DNA of 64,000 bases from positions 96,001-160,000 of the IMG/VR virus record IMGVR_UViG_3300014205_000177; one strand, given 5' to 3'. Both the position numbers and the translations under genes were made by a program. Below, in pieces: positions 9,501-63,015 of this stretch; positions within the stretch are counted from its first letter, which is position 1; the number at the start of each line of letters is the position of its first letter. This DNA is from a virus (taxonomy: Duplodnaviria; Caudoviricetes). The notes below the pieces were generated by a model. It made no database searches, had not been told where the DNA came from, and saw only the letters and a program-made list of their open reading frames with translations.

Positions 9501-10884
9501 CTCTTTTCCCAGTTGGGGTATAATATGGACAAATTCCACCTGCTTCTTTATAAAATTCTTTTGGGCTTTTTGTTTCTATTCCATTACCGTCATAAGAAAC
9601 ATTATACATTTGACATAAGTTAACATTAAAAACACCTTCAGGTTTTTCATCGACAAAACATTTACATGCAATATTTGTTGTTATCCCAAAATCTCTTTTG
9701 AAAAAACTACATCCTTTATGAACTATTTCACCATCATTAATGTCTGAATTCCTTATACATCTAATAGTATTTGGTAAACCTCCACCAACTGATGAAACTT
9801 TACCTATTTGATTTGGTCTTGGTTGCTGTATTTTATCACTAATTTCAGCAGGTTCAACATAAACTCCACTTGGTAGTATATTTAAATAATTCCAAGATTC
9901 AACTCTTTCTATATAAGACCTTGTATCTCCGCCAACCGTTGTTGCTTCATAAGATATAATACCATCATCAACTGCATACATTGGAGACCCAAATGTTGCA
10001 GTAACTCTTGGTGTTACAACATTAGTATATAAATTAGAAGAATCTAACCATTCACTAGGTGCTGACATATTTATAAAATTAGACGGAACATTCCCATGTT
10101 GACCTCTATCTACACTTTTTACAGCTACATCTTTTCTATAATATCTAACTCCTGCATTTGTTTTTGGATATGTCAAAATCTTTCTAAAACCATAAATTCC
10201 TTTTTTTATAAAAGTATTTTTATATAAAACATGTGCGTCTGGGGCTGTCCATTTTTCATATTTTACACCATTTACTGTTACTCCAATTTCTAAATCTTCT
10301 TGTTTATAAATTCTACCTGGGTTTGCTTCTTTTTTGTCAATTATGCTTTGAATAGTTTTACTATCATATTTTGTTTGATATAAATATAGTGGTTCATATA
10401 ATTCTTCTGACTCTGTATCCCTAATTTGCCCATTAACTACTGCTCTTCTTAATCTACCTGACTTTCTATTATATTCAAATAAAGGGTCGTTGTTTTCTGG
10501 ATTTACAATCCCATTAATAACTGTAAGTGTTTTTGGACTATAAAGAGGAGGTTCAATTACAGTAGTACCAGAATAAATTCCTTTAAAAATATATTCAGTG
10601 AATTTCCACGGAGAACGAACCTCTGGGAATTGTTGACAGTATGCGTTTTTATCAGAAATGACACCAAATCTTACATCTGGTTGAAATTTATGAGTCCAAT
10701 TTGTCCATCCCTTATATCCTTCATCTGCATCTATTTCTACATACTTAGCACCATATAGCTCAACTTCACTTGAATAATGATAACTATCTTGCATCCCTCT
10801 CATTAAATCTCTTGGGTATGTATCAAAACTAAGTTTTGTGTTATCTGGATACTTAAAATTTTTATCAAAACTCGTGTCTAACAT
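3535..10884 (-). CDS. Very large tail-associated protein (2449 aa) with Cys-rich/Zn-ribbon segments
   Basis: ORF track; downstream of tape measure and hub genes; CPKC..CPRC and CPNAGNC..CAEC motifs. Confidence 0.55.
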   Translation of the reverse strand: MLDTSFDKNFKYPDNTKLSFDTYPRDLMRGMQDSYHYSSEVELYGAKYVEIDADEGYKGWTNWTHKFQPDVRFGVISDKNAYCQQFPEVRSPWKFTEYIFKGIYSGTTVIEPPLYSPKTLTVINGIVNPENNDPLFEYNRKSGRLRRAVVNGQIRDTESEELYEPLYLYQTKYDSKTIQSIIDKKEANPGRIYKQEDLEIGVTVNGVKYEKWTAPDAHVLYKNTFIKKGIYGFRKILTYPKTNAGVRYYRKDVAVKSVDRGQHGNVPSNFINMSAPSEWLDSSNLYTNVVTPRVTATFGSPMYAVDDGIISYEATTVGGDTRSYIERVESWNYLNILPSGVYVEPAEISDKIQQPRPNQIGKVSSVGGGLPNTIRCIRNSDINDGEIVHKGCSFFKRDFGITTNIACKCFVDEKPEGVFNVNLCQMYNVSYDGNGIETKSPKEFYKEAGGICPYYTPTGKREIITFETTAATQEQYAKAFSGVDRMSGYFVNGDAAMAMSNTPFATPAIMGGLLLSQKNAMDSLPTNPVQMGEGTVRYKVEYEFTKMLAEGREIIRDKFPSKSDYETILEGTGKMAFDTKGTGYGGVDTDIYSGTNLLSRHRFNCSVMPCYNSEKCNRAYGTVKMLNQWENGIYAGVDGQDYCRYYNQGCPHTEVPRRALEYDKKYRHAMSLIIPIFRYYGIGGFSGIREHEIGSGVYAAVGMCEELDSLDFINTFPTVNDKLYFYYTISSSDTENHTKSILFVHLKQYDYNNNLLLMSLSSNSKPAENYPDNVPWLVKLYDDYVSPSKFETYINNVRPFMGGRMPEYKDYSKMGSEVMCPMLTGGTGIFGREGNSGTDSKDDYSDNTKVFRGYRIDKTGEFIVDGRTLGGVVPSTTQARAYGVPTINNEATPIDGTMGTSMINANNSSGATVTNAWIYSSDTRDILNSEEMINMTNSDGKSAPPKTPPDGVLPKERTYYLCPKCNISTDQFHIYNGLTNDKLNYWGEPVVPQIITDLEYVYFEGKCPRCDNVLDGPYQWSNFPQVESSGVVNIWGFPGQEVRLDGYYWKNHTEISRSFISEIFTKLGPQKTDGGGYLLKRESSANYNTEGSVCLPHKQKGMNTKQGILKDGKLDESTILQYARNDKYVTEPISLHQENDNRLTSGKYNDGQISPYNDKIDGLDFFSANHLKTLRNFIQPMLGYSLSEPPEGSDFFNTKQVGNKYRFDNLIPKKFPGKRKGLNPIVLASTETDGEGNYVQFWDGSISPGKVIIYWYPPSKVWWYRYGYIGGISRAEGTNSLHFDNSFSENRAGGTDGYVGDVYSNSYVFPHGWIPLDKEVVRVIASVTPVSLPTAPRVGTVWSGRVYNYHYHPLLVGHEGENQMTGEHHFNDNDINEKIDYTVGTENTEKYNFSSESYVSYIYNKKYSFYENPPISQFTDDSYGFNFSQDLLEWNGFGSDIIQNKTEAEAWKDKTYEEFRDTINRYTINGKVVIGDKSSHGLEVDFTIVPPSFANGYYNNKTQYIPDYFDYTGMNDTLIYDKNGPMFEPKYYDTSWSESGQVIVQNYEIKTSASISSSITTGGNGSTGSSEPLGNSSSKFGKPLNFDMTDYFKLIYNKRNSRAYKLSTGLSFSQIGNYIISEKIKAYEDSTSEYAPNQLNNDRYGNAVKGFWLNNWNMYPQKNENGEFPTIISGEEYPKNKNGILDDYSGCYISPDSVVNGVSNSNFNNFNPLVLCMAKESVNSISQKSGYTPSTSGSWSSSEVWEPSLNSEKYWLYYSNTNDSSYISFKLSGFPTEKERRPYRYEKGKWNVANAICPNAGNCRIANRGLTVSEAIGWCESPSAYGGFKVIRPSLDSIHCAECGTDLTKSPEKTGAFYTGGDGILTITYGELPDKNCFITSINVEQKENNYCDFSIMYKNEESSFWKTLINIYWDSISSKWLVPKYLNGELLYSEYSSIPELNGKWIDGGVINANKNIADNYNFIVPRANKIKYQCNPSVPKNIIMLTPVLGNTFLENMIDSNKFKIKIDCSSLRSDELGESYFELSNDFSLETGKVRYKIKSNDESSITLYELFQTSDTRSKFRIYRTAYVSTCKKLEVYGYETTPDILTITKDCNSLIVQIPIAMQTSDLSSFPISIPENPSKIISLGAGSSGNIKFLMQDNDTNDNLYWKVRMNGTEYEIYGGNFFFNNSTHSLMMPTYCIDQTGKEIKINNIKQSSIPTFLEIKYVLNNGSDVEVKATSIGNGPSYLLEKDSIRFIYGNENKPDGYSSDIMKQIQDSGGSTDNITILPSIGNSIVFQHNVNNSGKACRKDMKWIVTNPNRCDADFQDLQFVGNELHGNKERNFDEILNGGTGSEKTNGFVNSKHIIGGKVETSVVLSGLPNTIISGDLYVYAKAITEEVTTYRTPLGMETKKTYERTGGIDKTGFMIGVKDLLDGSSSKKGRRGICFTKPQVIVYLRERDSTEEI

Positions 10885-17031: not shown

Positions 17032-20000
17032 TTATTTATTCATATTATATTTGGCACTATCTACCTTTACTCCTGCCATTGCATTTCCAGCTCCTTGTTC
17101 TATTATCTTAGAAATTTGGGGCATTAACATTTCAACTATTAATTTAGCCAATGGACTTCCAAATGATTCAGTAAATGCATCTTGCAATCCAGATGCATCA
17201 ACACTTACAGAACCTGAAACTTCACTTTTTGTATTAGTTGAACTATTCTGTTCTTTGAACTTGTCAGCAGACTCTTTCATTGATTCTTCTTCTGTATCAA
17301 ACTTATTTCTATTATAATCGTAAGAGTACATTTTTGTATTACCGTACATTTTCTCATGACTCCCATCTGAAAAACCTGGGTCAATATCCCTATATTCTTC
17401 TTTTCCATTTATAATAGCATCTATTAATTCATCTCTTGATTGTTCCTTAGAGGTATATTTTGTTATTGCTTTTTCTTTTATTTTCTTATCATAAGCTTTT
17501 TCATCCCATCTTTTTTCTACAACTGATAGCTCATCTTGACCAAACATATTTTTTTCATAAACTAATTCTTCTCCAAGATATATTCCAGATGGTCTTTTTT
17601 TAGAATGTTTATTTTCTTTTTTATCTTTTACTTTATCTTTTACTAATTCTTTATTAGACATTATTCTTAAATAATCTGTATTTTTATACTTATTGTCACT
17701 ATTAATAGATGGTGTTAATTTATCATTATTGTTTTTTTCATCAACTTTATATTTTATTTTTTGTAATTCAGTCAATTTTGTTTTATTGTCTATACCAGAT
17801 TTAAAAGATTCAGGAGTTAATTCTTTAACTTTATCTTCATCATCTTTCATCTTTCTGTGTTTTTCCATTAATTTAGAATATTCTTCACTAGTTACCTTTC
17901 TAGATAACTCAGATGGATTATTATATGACTCTTCTGATGGCTCAGTTCCATCATCAATTATTGAATTAAAATAATCTCTATATGATTTTTTGCTGGTACT
18001 TGCATCTTTTTCAAGTCCTGCTTTTTTATCATTAAACTTTTTATCTAATTGATTGTTGTATTCAGAATTAACATTTTTATCTGAAAGAAGTGTTTCAATT
18101 TGTTTATTATCATTTTCTATTCCGGTTCTTTTTGCCAAATCAATAGCTTTTTTAATTGCAAAATTTGCTTTATTAGGTGCTATTTCATCTTTTTTCTCAT
18201 CACTCCATAAATGAGATATTGCAGCTATTGGAGAAATTACTCGAAGTGCTAGTGAAGCCTTATTGTTTTTAGATTCATATTCTCTTTTTAAAGATTCACG
18301 TTTTGCTTCAAGTATTCTTTCACGAAAAATTCTAAATATATTACTTCTTTCCTCAAGTGTTTTCCCTTTTCCTTTATACATTGATGATTCTTGCAATATT
18401 GAAGCTTGGGTATCTTGAGGCAATTCTTCTGTTGCTCCCATGGATTTAGCTAAATCCATTACCTTGGCAATAGAATTTTTATCTATTTCTCTTTCTCTTC
18501 TCTTGTTTTCTCCATCATAATGAATTAAAGAATCTCTTTTAGATGGGTCATTTGTAGTATTTTTATGGGTTTTAACCATATTATAGATATTGTTTTGTTC
18601 TTCTTTCTTTTCTATTTGATTGGCTTTTGAACCAAGTCTTTTTGAAACATAACCACCAGTTAAATATTTATCTGCTTGAGATATTGCCGTCGCAGACCTA
18701 TCTAAAATTTCTGATACAATTCCACCACCCTTTAGCATACCTGATTTATTAATATATCTTGATATTCCATTATTTCTGGAATTATATTCCCAATCTGTAA
18801 GTCCTACTGATTTTTTATAATTCTCATTTTCTTTTTGTGAAAAACCATCAATGTCATGTTTTTTACTACGAAAATATCCTTCAGAACCAAGCATATCTTG
18901 GGTTGCATTGATTCCACCACTCATAATAGCCATTGAAGGGTCTAATCCAAGAAACGCCAAATGAGAAGCCATCCCAACTGCATCTCCAATATCTTCTCTT
19001 CCTGTGATTCTTTCAGCTGCATATGATGTTAATGGAGCAGTCATAGATAAACCCATTCCAATAAGAGAACCCTTTGGATTCATAGCTCCTATTTTATTTA
19101 TCCCTCTTGCAAGCTTCATTGGTGATTTCATCCATGATGGACTTTTCTCAATAGCCTTAGAAATATATGGAGTAGCTAATTTAGTAATACCTGTTTTGTC
19201 CCCTGCATATGAAGCAAGTTTTCCGCCCCATCCTCTAATTTTACTATTAAATGCTAAAAGTGGTAATGATTCAACTGCTGTATCACCCAAAGCCATTGGT
19301 ATATCTTTGTAATTATTAGTTTTAGCAAAATTGTTATATGCACTGCTTCCTGCGTACATTATAGAAGCTGCTGCTGTAGCAATTGAAGATTTAGGAGATT
19401 TAGAAAGAGCCTCATACAAGAAAGAACCAGAAACGGCAGATTTGCCAATTCCGCTAATTATAGATTTACTATCTCCTTTTTTGAAATCCTCAGCAGCATC
19501 CTTTCCATAATAATAAGCTGCCATTCCTGAAATGAACGAACTACCTGTTTTTTGGAAATTATCTCCAAACGATGGCTTAACTGCTGGTTCAAATGGAATT
19601 CCTTTGTTAGACATTCTTTCTCTTGCTATTCTACGAGAACGTTCTCCTGAAGTTTCAACCCTTACAGGTTCTTCAATTTTTTCTTTAGGTTTACGTCTAT
19701 TTCTTATTTTTCTTGATTCTTCATCAAGTTTTCTTTTACGTGACACTGGTGTTGGTGGCTCTTGTCTTATTTCAATTTCATCTGCATAATCTTTTAATGT
19801 TTTACTAACTTTAGGAAGTTTTTCACCTATTAATTCACCACCTTCTTTAAAAGTAAAGTTTTCCCCAATAATTTTTGCTAGTGGACCATATCCATTTTTA
19901 CCACCCATAATATCTGAAATAGTTTTTATTCTTGCATGTGGACTATTACCAGAAGATTCTAAGGCGTAATCAATTGATTTATATATGTTTTTATGTAATT

Positions 20001-56752: not shown

Positions 56753-56828
56753 GGGGATGTAGCTCAATTAGGAGAGCATCGGTCTGTCGAACCGAAGGTC
56801 GTGGGGGCAGAACCCATCATCCTCGCCA
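56753..56828 (+). tRNA. tRNA-Asp(GTC)
   Basis: TCGGT-CTGTCGA-ACCGA, G73, T-loop GGCAGAA, CCA. Confidence 0.9.
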
Positions 56829-56922: not shown

Positions 56923-57012
56923 GGGGAGGTAGCTCAGAGGCAGAGCGTCGGGCTAGGTGGTGAAAACCACCGAATCTGAAGGTCGCTGGTTCGAATCCAG
57001 CCTTCCCCACCA
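56923..57012 (+). ncRNA. tRNA-like RNA with the anticodon loop replaced by a GAAA hairpin
   Basis: Canonical acceptor, D and T arms and CCA; anticodon region is CTA-GGTGGT-GAAA-ACCACC-GAA. Confidence 0.8.
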
Positions 57013-60435: not shown

Positions 60436-60669
60436 ATGATGAAATTAAAAATAAAATGTCCAGAATGTAAAAGGGAACATCTTGTCACTATATCAAATGA
60501 ACAACCTATTATGGAAATTAAAAAGATAAAATGTTTATCTTGTAGTATAATTATAAAATATAGAATAGGAATAAAAAAAGAAAATACCAGTGATAGTTCT
60601 TCTAAACTTTTTGATAGTATGGGAATGTTTGGAGATGTTTTTAAAAATATTATGGGGAGTAAAAGATGA
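60436..60669 (+). CDS. Zn-ribbon protein
   Basis: CPEC..CLSC. Confidence 0.65.
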   Translation: MMKLKIKCPECKREHLVTISNEQPIMEIKKIKCLSCSIIIKYRIGIKKENTSDSSSKLFDSMGMFGDVFKNIMGSKR

Positions 60670-60992
60670 TAGGTACAATAGAAGTGGTAAATAAATATAC
60701 ATATGAAGGTGATTATATAGATATAATGAGAGGAACTCCACTTGGTAATCCATATATAGTTTCTGATTCAATGAGCAGAGAACAATCAGTTTTAAATTTT
60801 TATAAATATTTCAGAAAAGAATTTTTTAAAAAAACAGATGTATATAATGCAATAATGGAGATAGTTGAAAAGGTTAAGTCTGGAGAAAATGTAAAAATTA
60901 AATGTTGTTGTAAACCAAAATTATGCCATGGCGATATTATAAAAATTGCAATAGAAAGTATTTTAGAAAAACAAATTAGAAATAATACTTGA
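60666..60992 (+). CDS. DUF4326-like protein
   Basis: I.RGTPLGNPY..R...V..F..Y..CCCKPKLCHGDII motif. Confidence 0.8.
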   Translation: MIGTIEVVNKYTYEGDYIDIMRGTPLGNPYIVSDSMSREQSVLNFYKYFRKEFFKKTDVYNAIMEIVEKVKSGENVKIKCCCKPKLCHGDIIKIAIESILEKQIRNNT

Positions 60993-61016
60993 TTTTTAAA
61001 AATATTATGCTATAGT
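60989..61016 (+). promoter_or_regulatory. Promoter of the PTH2-like operon
   Basis: TTGATT-N16 (ending TGC)-TATAGT. Confidence 0.65.
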
Positions 61017-61066
61017 TAATATTATAAAATTTCTTATTATGAGAAATTAAAAAAAAGAGGTAAAAA

Positions 61067-61141
61067 ATGATGTAGAATAATAAATCTCCATAACGTGTTT
61101 CTTTGTTTTAATGATTTTAATAATAATAATAAACAAAGGAG
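61067..61141 (+). promoter_or_regulatory. Mini-leader ATG ATG TAG (read-through MM*NNKSP*) plus SD-sequestering hairpin
   Basis: SD GAGG at 61057; TTTCTTTGTTT (61098-61108) pairs with AAACAAAGGAG (61131-61141). Confidence 0.55.
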
Positions 61142-61147
61142 AGTATA

Positions 61148-61522
61148 ATGAATACTTTAAGAAACACGAACGAAGAAGTAATAGATTTGAAGAAAGAGGA
61201 ATATAAGAAGAATATTAAAAGGATGAAGGCTAACGTTAAACTGGTGTCAAATAACATAAAAGAAATGAAAGAAGAATTAAAGACTAAGCAAAAAAAAGGT
61301 GATTATAAAAGTTGGTCTTTAATGAGTGATTTAAATTCTTATAAAAATGATGTCAGAAATACACATATAGCTTATGCTATGGCAAAAGGGAGAGTCTACC
61401 AAAAAATTGAGTCAAAAGTTAGAGATAACAATGAACCAAACTGGTGGGCAATAAAGGCAAATATAGAAAATTTCTTCGGAAAGAAATTTGAAATTGTTGA
61501 CTTCAAGGTAAACTTTCTATGA
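61148..61522 (+). CDS. Hypothetical protein (R..HIAY.M.KGR.Y..IE motif)
   Basis: 124 aa, SD AAGGAG; coupled to the next gene by ATGA overlap. Confidence 0.7.
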   Translation: MNTLRNTNEEVIDLKKEEYKKNIKRMKANVKLVSNNIKEMKEELKTKQKKGDYKSWSLMSDLNSYKNDVRNTHIAYAMAKGRVYQKIESKVRDNNEPNWWAIKANIENFFGKKFEIVDFKVNFL

Positions 61523-61821
61523 AAAAGGTATTTATAATAACCAGGAAAGACCTTGAAAATGGAGCAAGAATAGTTCAGTCTGTTCATTCATTCCATGAGT
61601 TGGCAAGAAAAAATGAAGAAATATTGAATCAGGTATATAATACAATATGTTACAAAATAGAAGACGAACTATCATTAAAAGAAGTTTCTGAGAGGATAGC
61701 AAGTAATCTAAACGAAAAAGAATATGCATGGTTCAGAGAAACAGATTACAATAATCAATTGACCTCTTTTGCAGTCTTTACAAACAAGAAAGAGCTGTTT
61801 AAAGGTTTAAGATTGGCGTAA
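61519..61821 (+). CDS. Peptidyl-tRNA hydrolase type 2 (PTH2)-like protein
   Basis: KVFIITRKDL..G..IVQSVHS..FRETD...QLTS..LFKGLRL resembles the PTH2 fold signature. Confidence 0.7.
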   Translation: MKKVFIITRKDLENGARIVQSVHSFHELARKNEEILNQVYNTICYKIEDELSLKEVSERIASNLNEKEYAWFRETDYNNQLTSFAVFTNKKELFKGLRLA

Positions 61822-61827
61822 TAAATA

Positions 61828-61855
61828 GGGAGGAGTAAATCCTCCCATTATTTTA
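61828..61855 (+). terminator. Probable terminator hairpin
   Basis: GGGAGGA-GTAAA-TCCTCCC followed by ATTATTTT. Confidence 0.55.
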
Positions 61856-61871: not shown

Positions 61872-62342
61872 ATGAGCAATAAAGAAAATTATTTTTTAGA
61901 CCTAGCACTTAGAAGTGCTCATCAAGGTTCCTGTACAAGAAGAAACTACGGAGCAATTATAGTAAACGAGAAAAAGCATATAGTAGCAACTGGTTATACA
62001 GGAAATGTATCAGGAGAAGAGCACTGTAATAGTCTTGGAATTTGCTGGAGAAAAGAGAATAATATTCCAAGTGGAACCTCCTACGAACGCTGTAAATCAA
62101 TACATGCCGAACAGAATGCGTTAATTCAAGCCGGTAAAGAATCTTATGGTTCTGTAATATATATTGCCGGATATGATGTAGAAACAGGAAGGGAAATAGC
62201 TGGTATACCTTGCTTTATTTGTGCAAAACTAATTGTTAATGCTGGAATATCTTCTATTATATATAGAGATACATCTTTAGTGTTCAGGAAGGGTCCAGTT
62301 GCCCATTATCGTGAACTAGAAAGAAAAATATTTGGAAAATAA
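61872..62342 (+). CDS. dCMP/cytidine deaminase family protein
   Basis: SCTRRNYGAIIV..ATGY.G..HAEQNA..PCFIC. Confidence 0.9.
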   Translation: MSNKENYFLDLALRSAHQGSCTRRNYGAIIVNEKKHIVATGYTGNVSGEEHCNSLGICWRKENNIPSGTSYERCKSIHAEQNALIQAGKESYGSVIYIAGYDVETGREIAGIPCFICAKLIVNAGISSIIYRDTSLVFRKGPVAHYRELERKIFGK

Positions 62343-62941: not shown

Positions 62942-63015
62942 ATGTCTATAGTTCAATAGTAGAACGGGAGTCTCCAAAACTCTTGACGAGGGGGCAGTAC
63001 CTTCTAGACATGCCA
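62942..63015 (+). tRNA. tRNA-Trp(CCA)
   Basis: GGAGT-CTCCAAA-ACTCT, G73, T-loop GGCAGTA, CCA. Confidence 0.9.

What the first reader, a model, noticed from the sequence alone, without database searches (positions are those of the whole stretch)
61057..61821. Met-Met-amber minigene upstream of a PTH2-like operon: possible termination or drop-off sensor
Seen: after promoter 60989 come SD GAGG, then ATG ATG TAG AAT AAT AAA TCT CCA TAA. An 11-bp hairpin follows (61098-61108 with 61131-61141) that hides the AAGGAG SD of gene 61148; an alternative 10-bp pairing is CGTGTTTCTT with AAGAAACACG (61159-61168). Inference: a ribosome stopping at TAG leaves the hairpin intact, while one reading through to the Pro-TAA covers its 5' strand and frees the SD. 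Established: minigenes such as lambda bar cause peptidyl-tRNA drop-off and strain Pth, and Pro-stop slows termination. This would be a third ribosome-sensing switch, controlling tRNA recycling.
Basis: partly seen in the sequence, partly recalled or inferred. Interest (0 to 1): 0.72.

Follow-up and report, generated by a model that had tools for sequence, protein, structure and literature searches.

The report
Amber-stop-gated leader switch controlling phage Pth2
A 178-kb phage places an eight-codon leader gene, interrupted by a UAG stop, in front of two small genes, one a peptidyl-tRNA-hydrolase look-alike, so these genes are probably translated only when the phage's own UAG-reading tRNA overrides that stop.

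Summary
In detail: promoter, SD, ATG ATG TAG + 5 codons + TAA (61067-61093), then a helix whose 5' strand starts one base after TAA and pairs with the SD and start region of gene 61148.

The window alone gives weak statistics. Four divergent relatives, whose proteins are only 22-62% identical, keep the same design: ATG(ATG)-TAG, exactly five sense codons, a final Pro in three synonymous codons, TAA, then an anti-SD strand.

Gene 61519 has a PTH2 fold. The contig carries an amber-suppressor tRNA(CUA) 139 kb away but is not TAG-recoded. Two relatives keep an in-frame TAG inside their PTH2-like gene, so TAG is decoded in this lineage. In 29 distant phage loci with this PTH2-like family, 23 have a tRNA(CUA) within 2 kb and 12 have a TAG-interrupted leader ending in Pro-stop.

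Best reading (about 0.6): a translational attenuator whose input is amber read-through. Ribosomes that pass UAG stall at Ser/Pro-Pro-UAA and unmask the downstream start. The lambda-bar drop-off idea is not supported.

I found no published natural example. Earlier notes of this scan describe the same design in other phage genomes.

The parts
60989..61016 (+). Sigma-70-type promoter with extended -10 (TTGATT, 16 nt, TG-c-TATAGT). It overlaps the stop codon of the upstream DUF4326 gene.
   Evidence: Relatives have similar TTGAyw...TGCTAnnnT promoters at the same relative place.
61028..61048 (+). Hairpin at the 5' end of the predicted transcript (9 bp, loop AUU). Possibly an mRNA-stabilising stem.
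   Evidence: MFE and centroid, I19. Its function is inferred.
61057..61060 (+). Shine-Dalgarno GAGG of the leader ORF, 6 nt before the first ATG.
   Evidence: Relatives have AGGAGG or GGGGTG 5-8 nt before their leader ATG.
61067..61093 (+). Leader ORF ATG ATG TAG AAT AAT AAA TCT CCA TAA, read as M M [UAG] N N K S P stop. The sensing codon UAG is 61073-61075; the Ser-Pro-UAA termination-stall site is 61085-61093.
   Evidence: Conserved as MM*NNIPP* (L005), MM*NRKPP* (L020), M*LLKPP* (L007) and M*LQKPP* (L021). The only start-TAG hit in the 178-kb contig whose read-through frame ends in Pro before the next stop.
61094..61108 (+). 5' strand of the sequestering structure. It begins one base after TAA, so it lies inside the footprint of a ribosome paused on TAA.
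   Evidence: Two compensatory pair changes among three relatives.
61131..61141 (+). Inner 3' strand AAACAAAG, overlapping the AAGGAG Shine-Dalgarno (61136-61141) of gene 61148.
   Evidence: The equivalent ACAAGG pairing is seen in the MFE folds of L005 and L020, and GGUGAA SD pairing in L007 and L021.
61140..61158 (+). Small hairpin holding the AUG of gene 61148 in its loop.
   Evidence: A similar hairpin appears in the L020 and L005 folds.
61159..61168 (+). Outer 3' strand AAGAAACACG (codons 4-7 of gene 61148), pairing with 61094-61103.
   Evidence: I15. 90% of cells paired in three relatives, against 27-63% in slid registers.
61148..61522 (+). Gene X, 124 aa: a long helical hairpin plus a small C-terminal domain, no known family. 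It is the conserved partner gene upstream of the PTH2-like gene.
61519..61821 (+). PTH2-fold protein, 100 aa. Its start overlaps the stop of gene X (ATGA), suggesting translational coupling.
61828..61846 (+). Intrinsic-terminator-like hairpin closing the two-gene unit.
   Evidence: Hairpin plus T-run at the same place in L005 and L020.

Best explanation
The element is a leader-peptide translational attenuator whose input is decoding of an amber codon.

1. Transcription starts near 61023. The mRNA folds so that the strand just 3' of the leader stop (61094-61108) pairs with the SD and first codons of gene X (61131-61168).
2. Ribosomes initiate on the leader. If RF1 terminates them at UAG (codon 3), their footprint ends about 10 nt short of the helix, and X and the PTH2-like gene stay poorly translated.
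3. If the phage's own tRNA(CUA) decodes the UAG, the ribosome translates five more codons and reaches Ser-Pro-UAA (Pro-Pro-UAA in relatives). This is a slow-termination context.
4. Paused there, the ribosome occupies the 5' strand and the structure collapses. The SD and AUG of X become available, and the PTH2-like gene follows by ATGA coupling.

The operon would therefore be made in proportion to amber-suppression activity.

Shown here: the sequence anatomy, its conservation, the PTH2 fold, the presence of tRNA(CUA), and TAG decoding in relatives.

Inferred: stalling, helix opening, the direction of control, and what X and the PTH2-like protein do. My guess is that they handle peptidyl- or aminoacyl-tRNA linked to the suppressor.
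For: (1) Conservation. Five versions of the leader keep ATG(ATG)-TAG, exactly five sense codons and Pro-TAA, while the codons in between vary. The last Pro uses CCA, CCG and CCU. The flanking proteins are only 22-62% identical.

(2) Helix position. In all five, the helix 5' strand begins within about 2 nt of TAA and pairs with the downstream SD or start region. Among three relatives there are two compensatory pair changes and 90% pairing, against 27-63% in slid registers.

(3) Constrained folding. A ribosome at TAG leaves the helix and SD pairing unchanged. A ribosome at TAA cuts the structure from between -12.5 and -20.9 to between -5.5 and -8.7 kcal/mol. It raises P(SD unpaired) from 0.09 to 0.72 in L020, 0.11 to 0.64 in L007, 0.01 to 0.73 in L021, 0.42 to 0.59 in L005 and 0.30 to 0.41 in the window.

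(4) An amber-suppressor tRNA(CUA) lies at contig position 18254-18329.

(5) TAG is decoded in this lineage. L005 and L020 both keep an in-frame TAG at codon 27 of the PTH2-like gene. Between the two, the 26 codons before it differ by 8 synonymous and 5 non-synonymous changes. With TAG read through, the full-length proteins are 60-62% identical to the window protein.

(6) Recurrence in 29 distant viral loci that encode this PTH2-like family. 23 have a tRNA(CUA) within 2 kb. 12 have an SD-preceded short ORF with in-frame TAG ending in Pro-stop, such as ML*VKKPP*, MR*ISYKPP* and MS*NKWDHPP*. The same search with TGA as the internal stop found 0 of 29, and with TAA 3 of 29. Where a next gene could be called, the leader's end pairs with that gene's SD or start region.

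(7) Published precedent. [quoted passage not shown] Peptide release after C-terminal Pro is reported as slow (PMC7246954).
Against: - There is no expression, toeprint or reporter data.
- In the window the modelled gain in SD accessibility is small (0.30 to 0.41), because a 6-bp A/U helix and the AUG hairpin remain.
- Only five close relatives exist, two of them near-duplicates, so covariation statistics are weak (116 of 500 shuffles reach the observed score).
- The contig is not TAG-recoded, and 21 of 188 crude genes end in TAG. Why the phage keeps a suppressor is therefore unexplained.
- The suppressor gene lies 139 kb from this operon, unlike in most distant loci.
- The window ends in Ser-Pro rather than Pro-Pro.
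- 17 of 29 distant PTH2-like loci showed no such leader under my criteria.
Confidence: 0.6

Rival explanations
1. Same switch, different input. It reports RF1 shortage or general termination failure at UAG, through near-cognate read-through, rather than the phage suppressor tRNA.
For: The geometry is identical. RF1 and tRNA(CUA) compete for the same codon, so the element cannot tell them apart by sequence. In this phage the suppressor gene is far from the operon.
Against: This PTH2-like family is tightly linked to tRNA(CUA) genes in 23 of 29 distant loci. Relatives need TAG decoding inside the PTH2-like gene itself, which near-cognate read-through could hardly sustain.
Confidence: 0.15
2. The UAG always terminates, and the AUG-AUG-UAG or AUG-UAG mini-ORF acts on its own as a ribosome-loading or stand-by site, or as an mRNA-stabilising start-stop. 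The conserved bases beyond it would be RNA structure, not codons.
For: Start-stop mini-ORFs exist in bacteria (my own knowledge, not checked here). The 17-nt block around ATGATGTAG is the best-conserved part of the leader between the window and L005.
Against: It does not explain the invariant spacing of exactly five codons to an in-frame TAA in two leader types with different sequence. It does not explain the synonymous variation of the final Pro codon (CCA, CCG, CCU). It does not explain the recurrence of TAG...PP-stop leaders in distant phages, against 0 of 29 with internal TGA.
Confidence: 0.1
3. A lambda-bar-like minigene whose fMet-Met-tRNA drops off and loads Pth. The operon would respond to peptidyl-tRNA stress.
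For: The two-codon ORF with a good SD resembles bar minigenes in size, and the downstream gene has a PTH2 fold.
Against: Relatives L007 and L021 have AUG-UAG with no second sense codon, so no peptidyl-tRNA could form. No route links drop-off to helix opening. The conserved post-TAG frame is left unexplained.
Confidence: 0.05
4. A chance arrangement in AT-rich intergenic DNA, with no regulatory role.
For: Short SD+ATG+stop mini-ORFs are near chance frequency in the contig (30-39 per strand against about 25 expected). The fold z-score is only -2.3.
Against: The design is conserved in relatives whose proteins are only 22-62% identical, and recurs in distant phages.
Confidence: 0.03

Closest known systems
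[quoted passage not shown]
   Same: A short upstream ORF; a stall with the stop codon in the A site after a C-terminal Pro; a stem-loop that sequesters the SD of the next gene and is opened by the stalled ribosome.
   Different: Those peptides are about 100 residues long, carry a localisation signal, and sense Sec/YidC activity. Here the leader has 7-8 codons, no signal, lies in a phage, and whether the stall site is reached at all is decided by an in-frame UAG.
ermC / cat / cmlA translational attenuation leaders
   Same: A leader ORF plus a hairpin hiding the downstream SD and AUG. A ribosome paused in the leader frees them, and control is purely translational.
   Different: Their input is an antibiotic bound to the ribosome. 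There is no in-frame stop codon and no Pro-stop end.
prfB (RF2) autoregulatory in-frame UGA
   Same: An early in-frame stop codon serves as the measuring point for how efficiently that stop is read. This comparison rests on my own knowledge.
   Different: The prfB output is a +1 frameshift within one gene and senses the release factor. Here the output is read-through to a stall site that opens a helix, and the likely signal is a suppressor tRNA.
Engineered 'unnatural amino acid transcriptional switch': TAG placed in a tna/trp-type leader peptide (reviewed in PMC6412442, section 6)
   Same: [quoted passage not shown]
   Different: That device is synthetic and acts on transcription through rut/Rho. 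This element is natural, acts on translation initiation, and is conserved in phages.
TAG-recoded (genetic code 15) phages with suppressor tRNAs (bioRxiv 10.1101/2021.08.26.457843; PMC10607447)
   Same: A phage-encoded tRNA(CUA), and in relatives L005 and L020 an in-frame TAG inside a gene.
   Different: This contig reads cleanly in the standard code and uses TAG as a real stop for about 11% of crude gene calls. That preprint has no occurrence of 'leader' or 'hydrolase'.
Archaeal/eukaryotic peptidyl-tRNA hydrolase 2 (PF01981; PDB 2zv3, 1wn2, 1xty, 1q7s)
   Same: The same fold (TM 0.71-0.78) and a family-level profile match (E 8.6e-11).
   Different: The phage protein is shorter (100 aa) and lacks the Gly/Lys-rich loop after the DL motif. 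The window protein itself does not reach the Pfam threshold. Its catalytic equivalence is unknown.

Membership tests
Leader-peptide translational attenuators (ermC / SecM type) | A short ORF with its own SD immediately upstream of the regulated gene | tested here: met
   GAGG, 6 nt, then ATG at 61067. There are 54 nt between TAA and the ATG of gene 61148.
Leader-peptide translational attenuators (ermC / SecM type) | A helix that sequesters the downstream SD or start codon, with its 5' strand inside the footprint of the paused ribosome | tested here: met
   MFE and centroid folds. The same holds in four relatives. Constrained folds agree.
Leader-peptide translational attenuators (ermC / SecM type) | Ribosome pausing in the leader raises downstream translation | not testable with these tools
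   Needs a reporter or toeprint assay.
[quoted passage not shown] | A conserved C-terminal Pro directly before the stop codon | tested here: met
   Pro is the last codon in all five close versions and in the 12 distant leaders. That final Pro was a search criterion for the 12 distant leaders.
[quoted passage not shown] | An N-terminal localisation signal and a sec/yidC gene downstream | tested here: not met
   The leader has 8 codons, and the downstream genes are X and a PTH2-like gene. It works like this class but is not a member.
[quoted passage not shown] | Measured accumulation of peptidyl-tRNA with the stop codon in the A site | not testable with these tools
   Needs in vitro translation.
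PTH2 (PF01981) | The PTH2 alpha/beta fold | tested here: met
   AlphaFold2 model with pLDDT 97.6. The top Foldseek PDB hits are almost all PTH2/Bit1 structures, TM 0.71-0.78.
PTH2 (PF01981) | A sequence match at the Pfam gathering threshold | tested here: inconclusive
   The window protein gives no PF01981 hit. However, 31 of 35 of its homologues match PF01981 at E up to 0.1 (best 1.2e-12; thresholds not listed per member). Their profile matches PDB 2zv3 at E 8.6e-11.
PTH2 (PF01981) | Catalytic residues and hydrolase activity on peptidyl-tRNA | not tested
   The invariant residues of the phage family are R9, Q20, H23, L53, E74 and T82. The Gly/Lys-rich loop of archaeal Pth2 is absent in the alignment. 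No assay was possible.
Lambda bar-type drop-off minigenes | A two-codon ORF that yields a dipeptidyl-tRNA | tested here: not met
   Relatives L007 and L021 have AUG directly followed by UAG.
TAG-recoded (code 15) phages | Many genes interrupted by in-frame TAG, and low coding density under the standard code | tested here: not met
   ORF coverage is almost unchanged when TAG is read as sense (0.80 to 0.84, like host contigs). The only two long TAG junctions look non-coding. 21 of 188 crude genes end in TAG.
TAG-recoded (code 15) phages | A phage-encoded tRNA with anticodon CUA | tested here: met
   ARAGORN finds one at contig position 18254-18329.

The most novel reading that the evidence does not exclude
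This is a natural sensor of genetic-code state. Large phages carrying an amber-suppressor tRNA use a minimal UAG-interrupted, Pro-stop-ended leader to measure how well UAG is being read through. They couple that reading to a dedicated two-protein module, X plus a PTH2-like hydrolase, that manages the suppressor tRNA or its peptidyl/aminoacyl forms. This gives 'orphan' suppressor tRNAs in standard-code phages their first defined client and a feedback loop.
Probability: 0.45. Interest if true: 0.88.

Novelty: new variant of a known kind. Interest (0 to 1): 0.8.

Why it matters
Stop-codon reassignment in phages is known only from genome patterns. How a phage monitors or times the switch is open. 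This element would be a compact, testable cis-acting reporter of amber suppression built by nature, with the same logic that synthetic biologists engineered into tna/trp leaders.

It also ties a widespread, uncharacterised phage PTH2-like family and its partner protein to suppressor tRNAs. That suggests a function for both, and a reason why standard-code phages keep tRNA(CUA) genes.

The parts are small enough (about 110 nt) to serve directly as a read-through biosensor.

Tried and rejected
**Searches for relatives that found nothing useful**
- No DNA or protein relatives of the operon in the GenBank phage set, apart from one 37% PTH2-like hit.
- No relatives of the 124-aa protein in viral contigs, metagenome contigs or genome contigs.
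- The word-indexed protein search found only the window's own proteins until an alignment was used.
- The 60 host-relative genomes lack the PTH2-like gene with this query.
- The 17-mer AAAATGATGTAGAATAAY in viral contigs gave 8 chance hits with no SD and no such ORF.
- The full 35-sequence alignment was too diverse for a locus scan.
- The L020 record could not be searched for a suppressor tRNA because it is not held. No tRNA(CUA) lies within the 20 kb fetched.

**Structure and function attempts**
- RNAalifold on the five-sequence MAFFT alignment gave almost no consensus (4 pairs). The two leader types place the helix differently and MAFFT misaligned the arms. I used single-sequence folds and a three-sequence alignment instead.
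- Rfam gathering scan: only tRNAs.
- TAG recoding of the contig was considered and rejected. Backup stops after TAG-ended genes are no closer than after other stops.
- Amino-acid identity of the suppressor: no close tRNA in the genome, so left undetermined.
- Gene X: no Pfam, PDB-sequence or Foldseek match of value.
- X with the PTH2-like protein, complex prediction: no verdict.

**Other**
- Sequencing runs: no RNA holder listed. The only full DNA holder is a landfill metagenome that may be the source.
- More distant PTH2-like loci L016-L019 show no such leader.

Full report
**Context.** The window is positions 96001-160000 of a 177.8-kb, 30% G+C contig (C2) of a binned assembly. The contig is phage-like. 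It has more than 25 tRNA genes, HNH and dCMP deaminase genes, and long standard-code ORFs. The only full DNA holder among public runs is a landfill metagenome.

**Observation.**
- An extended -10 promoter (TTGATT, 16 nt, TGcTATAGT; 60989-61016).
- GAGG at 61057, then ATG ATG TAG AAT AAT AAA TCT CCA TAA at 61067-61093.
- An exact 10-bp pairing of 61094-61103 with 61159-61168, and an 8-bp pairing of 61101-61108 with 61131-61138 that overlaps the AAGGAG SD of gene 61148.
- The two pairings are not alternatives. The minimum-energy and centroid folds combine them into one three-way junction, with a third small hairpin presenting the AUG in its loop.
- The unit is closed by a terminator hairpin at 61828-61846. 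The two genes overlap by ATGA.

Taken alone, the window is weak evidence. The fold z-score is -2.3. SD+ATG+stop mini-ORFs occur at close to chance frequency in this AT-rich contig (30-39 per strand against about 25 expected).

**Downstream genes.** The 100-aa protein has no Pfam hit by itself. An exhaustive HMMER search found 40 distant homologues. Of the 35 aligned, 31 hit PF01981 (PTH2). Their profile matches the solved archaeal Pth2 2zv3 at E 8.6e-11. The AlphaFold2 model (pLDDT 97.6) matches PTH2/Bit1 structures at TM 0.71-0.78. The PTH2-fold claim therefore holds. Catalytic equivalence is open, because the Gly/Lys-rich loop of archaeal Pth2 is missing.

The 124-aa protein (X) is predicted to be a long helical hairpin with a small C-terminal domain. 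It matches no family or structure.

**Relatives.** Four metagenomic relatives were recovered through the protein hits.
- L005/L006 (2.3 kb) and L020 (from a 144.7-kb contig) share the order DUF4326, X, PTH2-like, dCMP deaminase.
- L007 and L021 carry X and the PTH2-like gene after a run of tRNA genes.
- X proteins are 22-41% identical to the window's. PTH2-like proteins are 35-62% identical.

All four nevertheless carry the same leader.

| Source | Leader read in frame |
|---|---|
| window | MM*NNKSP* |
| L005 | MM*NNIPP* |
| L020 | MM*NRKPP* |
| L007 | M*LLKPP* |
| L021 | M*LQKPP* |

The invariants are a good SD, ATG directly before TAG, exactly five sense codons, a final Pro and TAA. The final Pro is written CCA, CCG or CCU, which is a codon-level rather than base-level pattern. 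The gap from TAA to the X start codon is 54-59 nt. In the window's contig, this is the only SD-preceded start-TAG hit whose read-through frame ends in Pro before the next stop.

**Structure in relatives.** In each sequence the strand starting within about 2 nt of TAA forms the 5' side of the main helix.
- In the window, L005 and L020 it pairs with codons 4-7 of X and with ACAAGG at the SD.
- In L007 and L021, UUCACC pairs directly with the GGUGAA SD.
- On the three-sequence alignment, the outer helix has 90% of cells paired, against 27-63% in slid registers. Two pairs changed on both sides (C-G to U-A and U-A to C-G); one of them compensates a non-synonymous change in X.
- With three sequences the shuffle control is not significant (116 of 500).

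**Constrained folding** (ribosome footprint taken to 9 nt past the A-site codon).
- Occupancy at UAG changes neither the helix nor SD accessibility.
- Occupancy at UAA lowers stability from between -12.5 and -20.9 to between -5.5 and -8.7 kcal/mol.
- It raises the mean probability that the SD is unpaired: 0.09 to 0.72 (L020), 0.11 to 0.64 (L007), 0.01 to 0.73 (L021), 0.42 to 0.59 (L005) and 0.30 to 0.41 (window).

**What reads the UAG.**
- Outside the window, the contig encodes a tRNA with anticodon CUA at position 18254-18329.
- The contig is not recoded. Reading TAG as sense barely changes ORF coverage. The only two long same-frame TAG junctions look non-coding. 21 of 188 crude gene calls end in TAG.
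- In L005 and L020 the PTH2-like gene has an in-frame TAG at codon 27, where the window has GAG. These two genes are 68% identical in DNA. Their first 26 codons differ by 8 synonymous and 5 non-synonymous changes. Read through, both proteins align over their full length with the window protein at 60-62% identity. TAG is therefore decoded in this lineage, and there the operon has a second amber lock.

**Generality, tested independently.** A scan of IMG/VR with a PTH2-like alignment gave 29 loci, mostly from 100-500-kb phages.
- 23 carry a tRNA(CUA) within 2 kb, usually right after the PTH2-like gene.
- 12 have an SD-preceded short ORF with in-frame TAG ending in Pro-stop: ML*VKKPP*, MR*ISYKPP*, MIMR*ITYKPP*, MS*NKWDHPP*, MIKWT*GFT*IKSFKPP* and MTKSGFV*VVRSP*.
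- The same search with TGA as the internal stop found 0 of 29, and with TAA 3 of 29.
- In the four cases where a next gene could be called, the end of the leader or the bases just after its stop pair with that gene's SD or start region. Modelled occupancy at the final stop opens the pairing.
- X homologues precede the PTH2-like gene in 8 of the loci scanned (L016, L026-L030, L034, L049).

**Mechanism.** The best-supported reading is a translational attenuator gated by amber read-through. RF1 termination at UAG leaves the helix closed. Decoding by tRNA(CUA) carries the ribosome to (Ser/Pro)-Pro-UAA. Termination after a C-terminal Pro is slow (PMC7246954). Pro-stop arrest peptides stall with the stop codon in the A site and induce downstream genes by opening an SD-sequestering stem (PMC10987492). 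The paused ribosome sits on the 5' strand and frees the start of X, and the PTH2-like gene follows by coupling.

- Shown: the anatomy, its conservation, the fold, the tRNA, and TAG decoding in relatives.
- Inferred: stalling, opening, the direction of control, and the roles of the proteins.

**Rivals.** These are an RF1/termination sensor with the same geometry, a stand-alone start-stop element, a bar-like drop-off minigene, and chance. The bar analogy fails because two relatives have AUG-UAG with no second sense codon.

**Comparison with the known.** The output device belongs to a well-known kind, the ermC, SecM and NSP-stop leaders. The input has, as far as I could find, only a synthetic precedent: TAG placed in tna/trp leaders (PMC6412442). 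The main survey preprint on phage recoding has no occurrence of 'leader' or 'hydrolase'. Full-text searches found no description of the design.

Earlier notes of this scan describe the same design in other phage genomes. They also note an amber-suppressor tRNA and tRNA-array attenuators in this same phage. I treated these as leads. I had reached the reading before seeing them, and I tested recurrence myself.

**What is particular here.** The leader is extremely short, with UAG at codon 3, or codon 2 in relatives. The suppressor gene is remote from the operon. The second TAG lock is present in relatives but replaced by GAG in this phage.

**Verdict.** Its drop-off rationale is replaced by suppressor-tRNA sensing. 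This is a new variant of a known kind of switch, of high interest, and directly testable.

Noticed in passing
contig C2 18254-18329 (77.7 kb before the window start); L022:2254-2329: An amber-suppressor tRNA(CUA) in a contig that otherwise reads in the standard code. Just upstream (about C2 18190-18250) is a tRNA-like piece with acceptor and T arms that ARAGORN did not call as a tRNA.
   Followed up: partly
L005:586-588 and L020:10447-10449: An in-frame TAG at codon 27 of the PTH2-like gene in two relatives, where the window has GAG. Gene callers therefore report only a 71-aa C-terminal fragment.
   Followed up: yes
L023-L051 (IMG/VR loci): 23 of 29 phage loci encoding this PTH2-like family have a tRNA(CUA) gene within 2 kb, typically 50-150 nt after the gene. 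This is a strong gene-neighbourhood link that I did not find in the papers searched.
   Followed up: partly
window 56753-56825 and 62942-63012: Two tRNAs scored by Rfam (54.5 and 48.5 bits) that ARAGORN does not call. By eye, their anticodon loops read GUC (Asp) and CCA (Trp), and the T arms look unusual.
   Followed up: no
window 56923-57012: A 90-nt tRNA (Rfam 54.6 bits) for which ARAGORN gives no anticodon ('ag'). It seems to carry an inserted hairpin in the anticodon region.
   Followed up: no
L020:10717-12465: The dCMP deaminase downstream of the operon is 582 aa in this relative and carries an intein-splicing domain hit. It is 156 aa in the window (61872-62342).
   Followed up: no
window 60436-60669: A 77-aa zinc-ribbon protein two genes upstream has a weak match (E 0.011) to a PHROG annotated 'translational regulator'. 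The match is too weak to use.
   Followed up: no
L020:9515-9928 against leader 9915-9941: In this relative the DUF4326 gene runs, in another frame, into the leader ORF. The operon promoter lies inside its 3' end. In the window the gene stops at 60992, before the leader.
   Followed up: no
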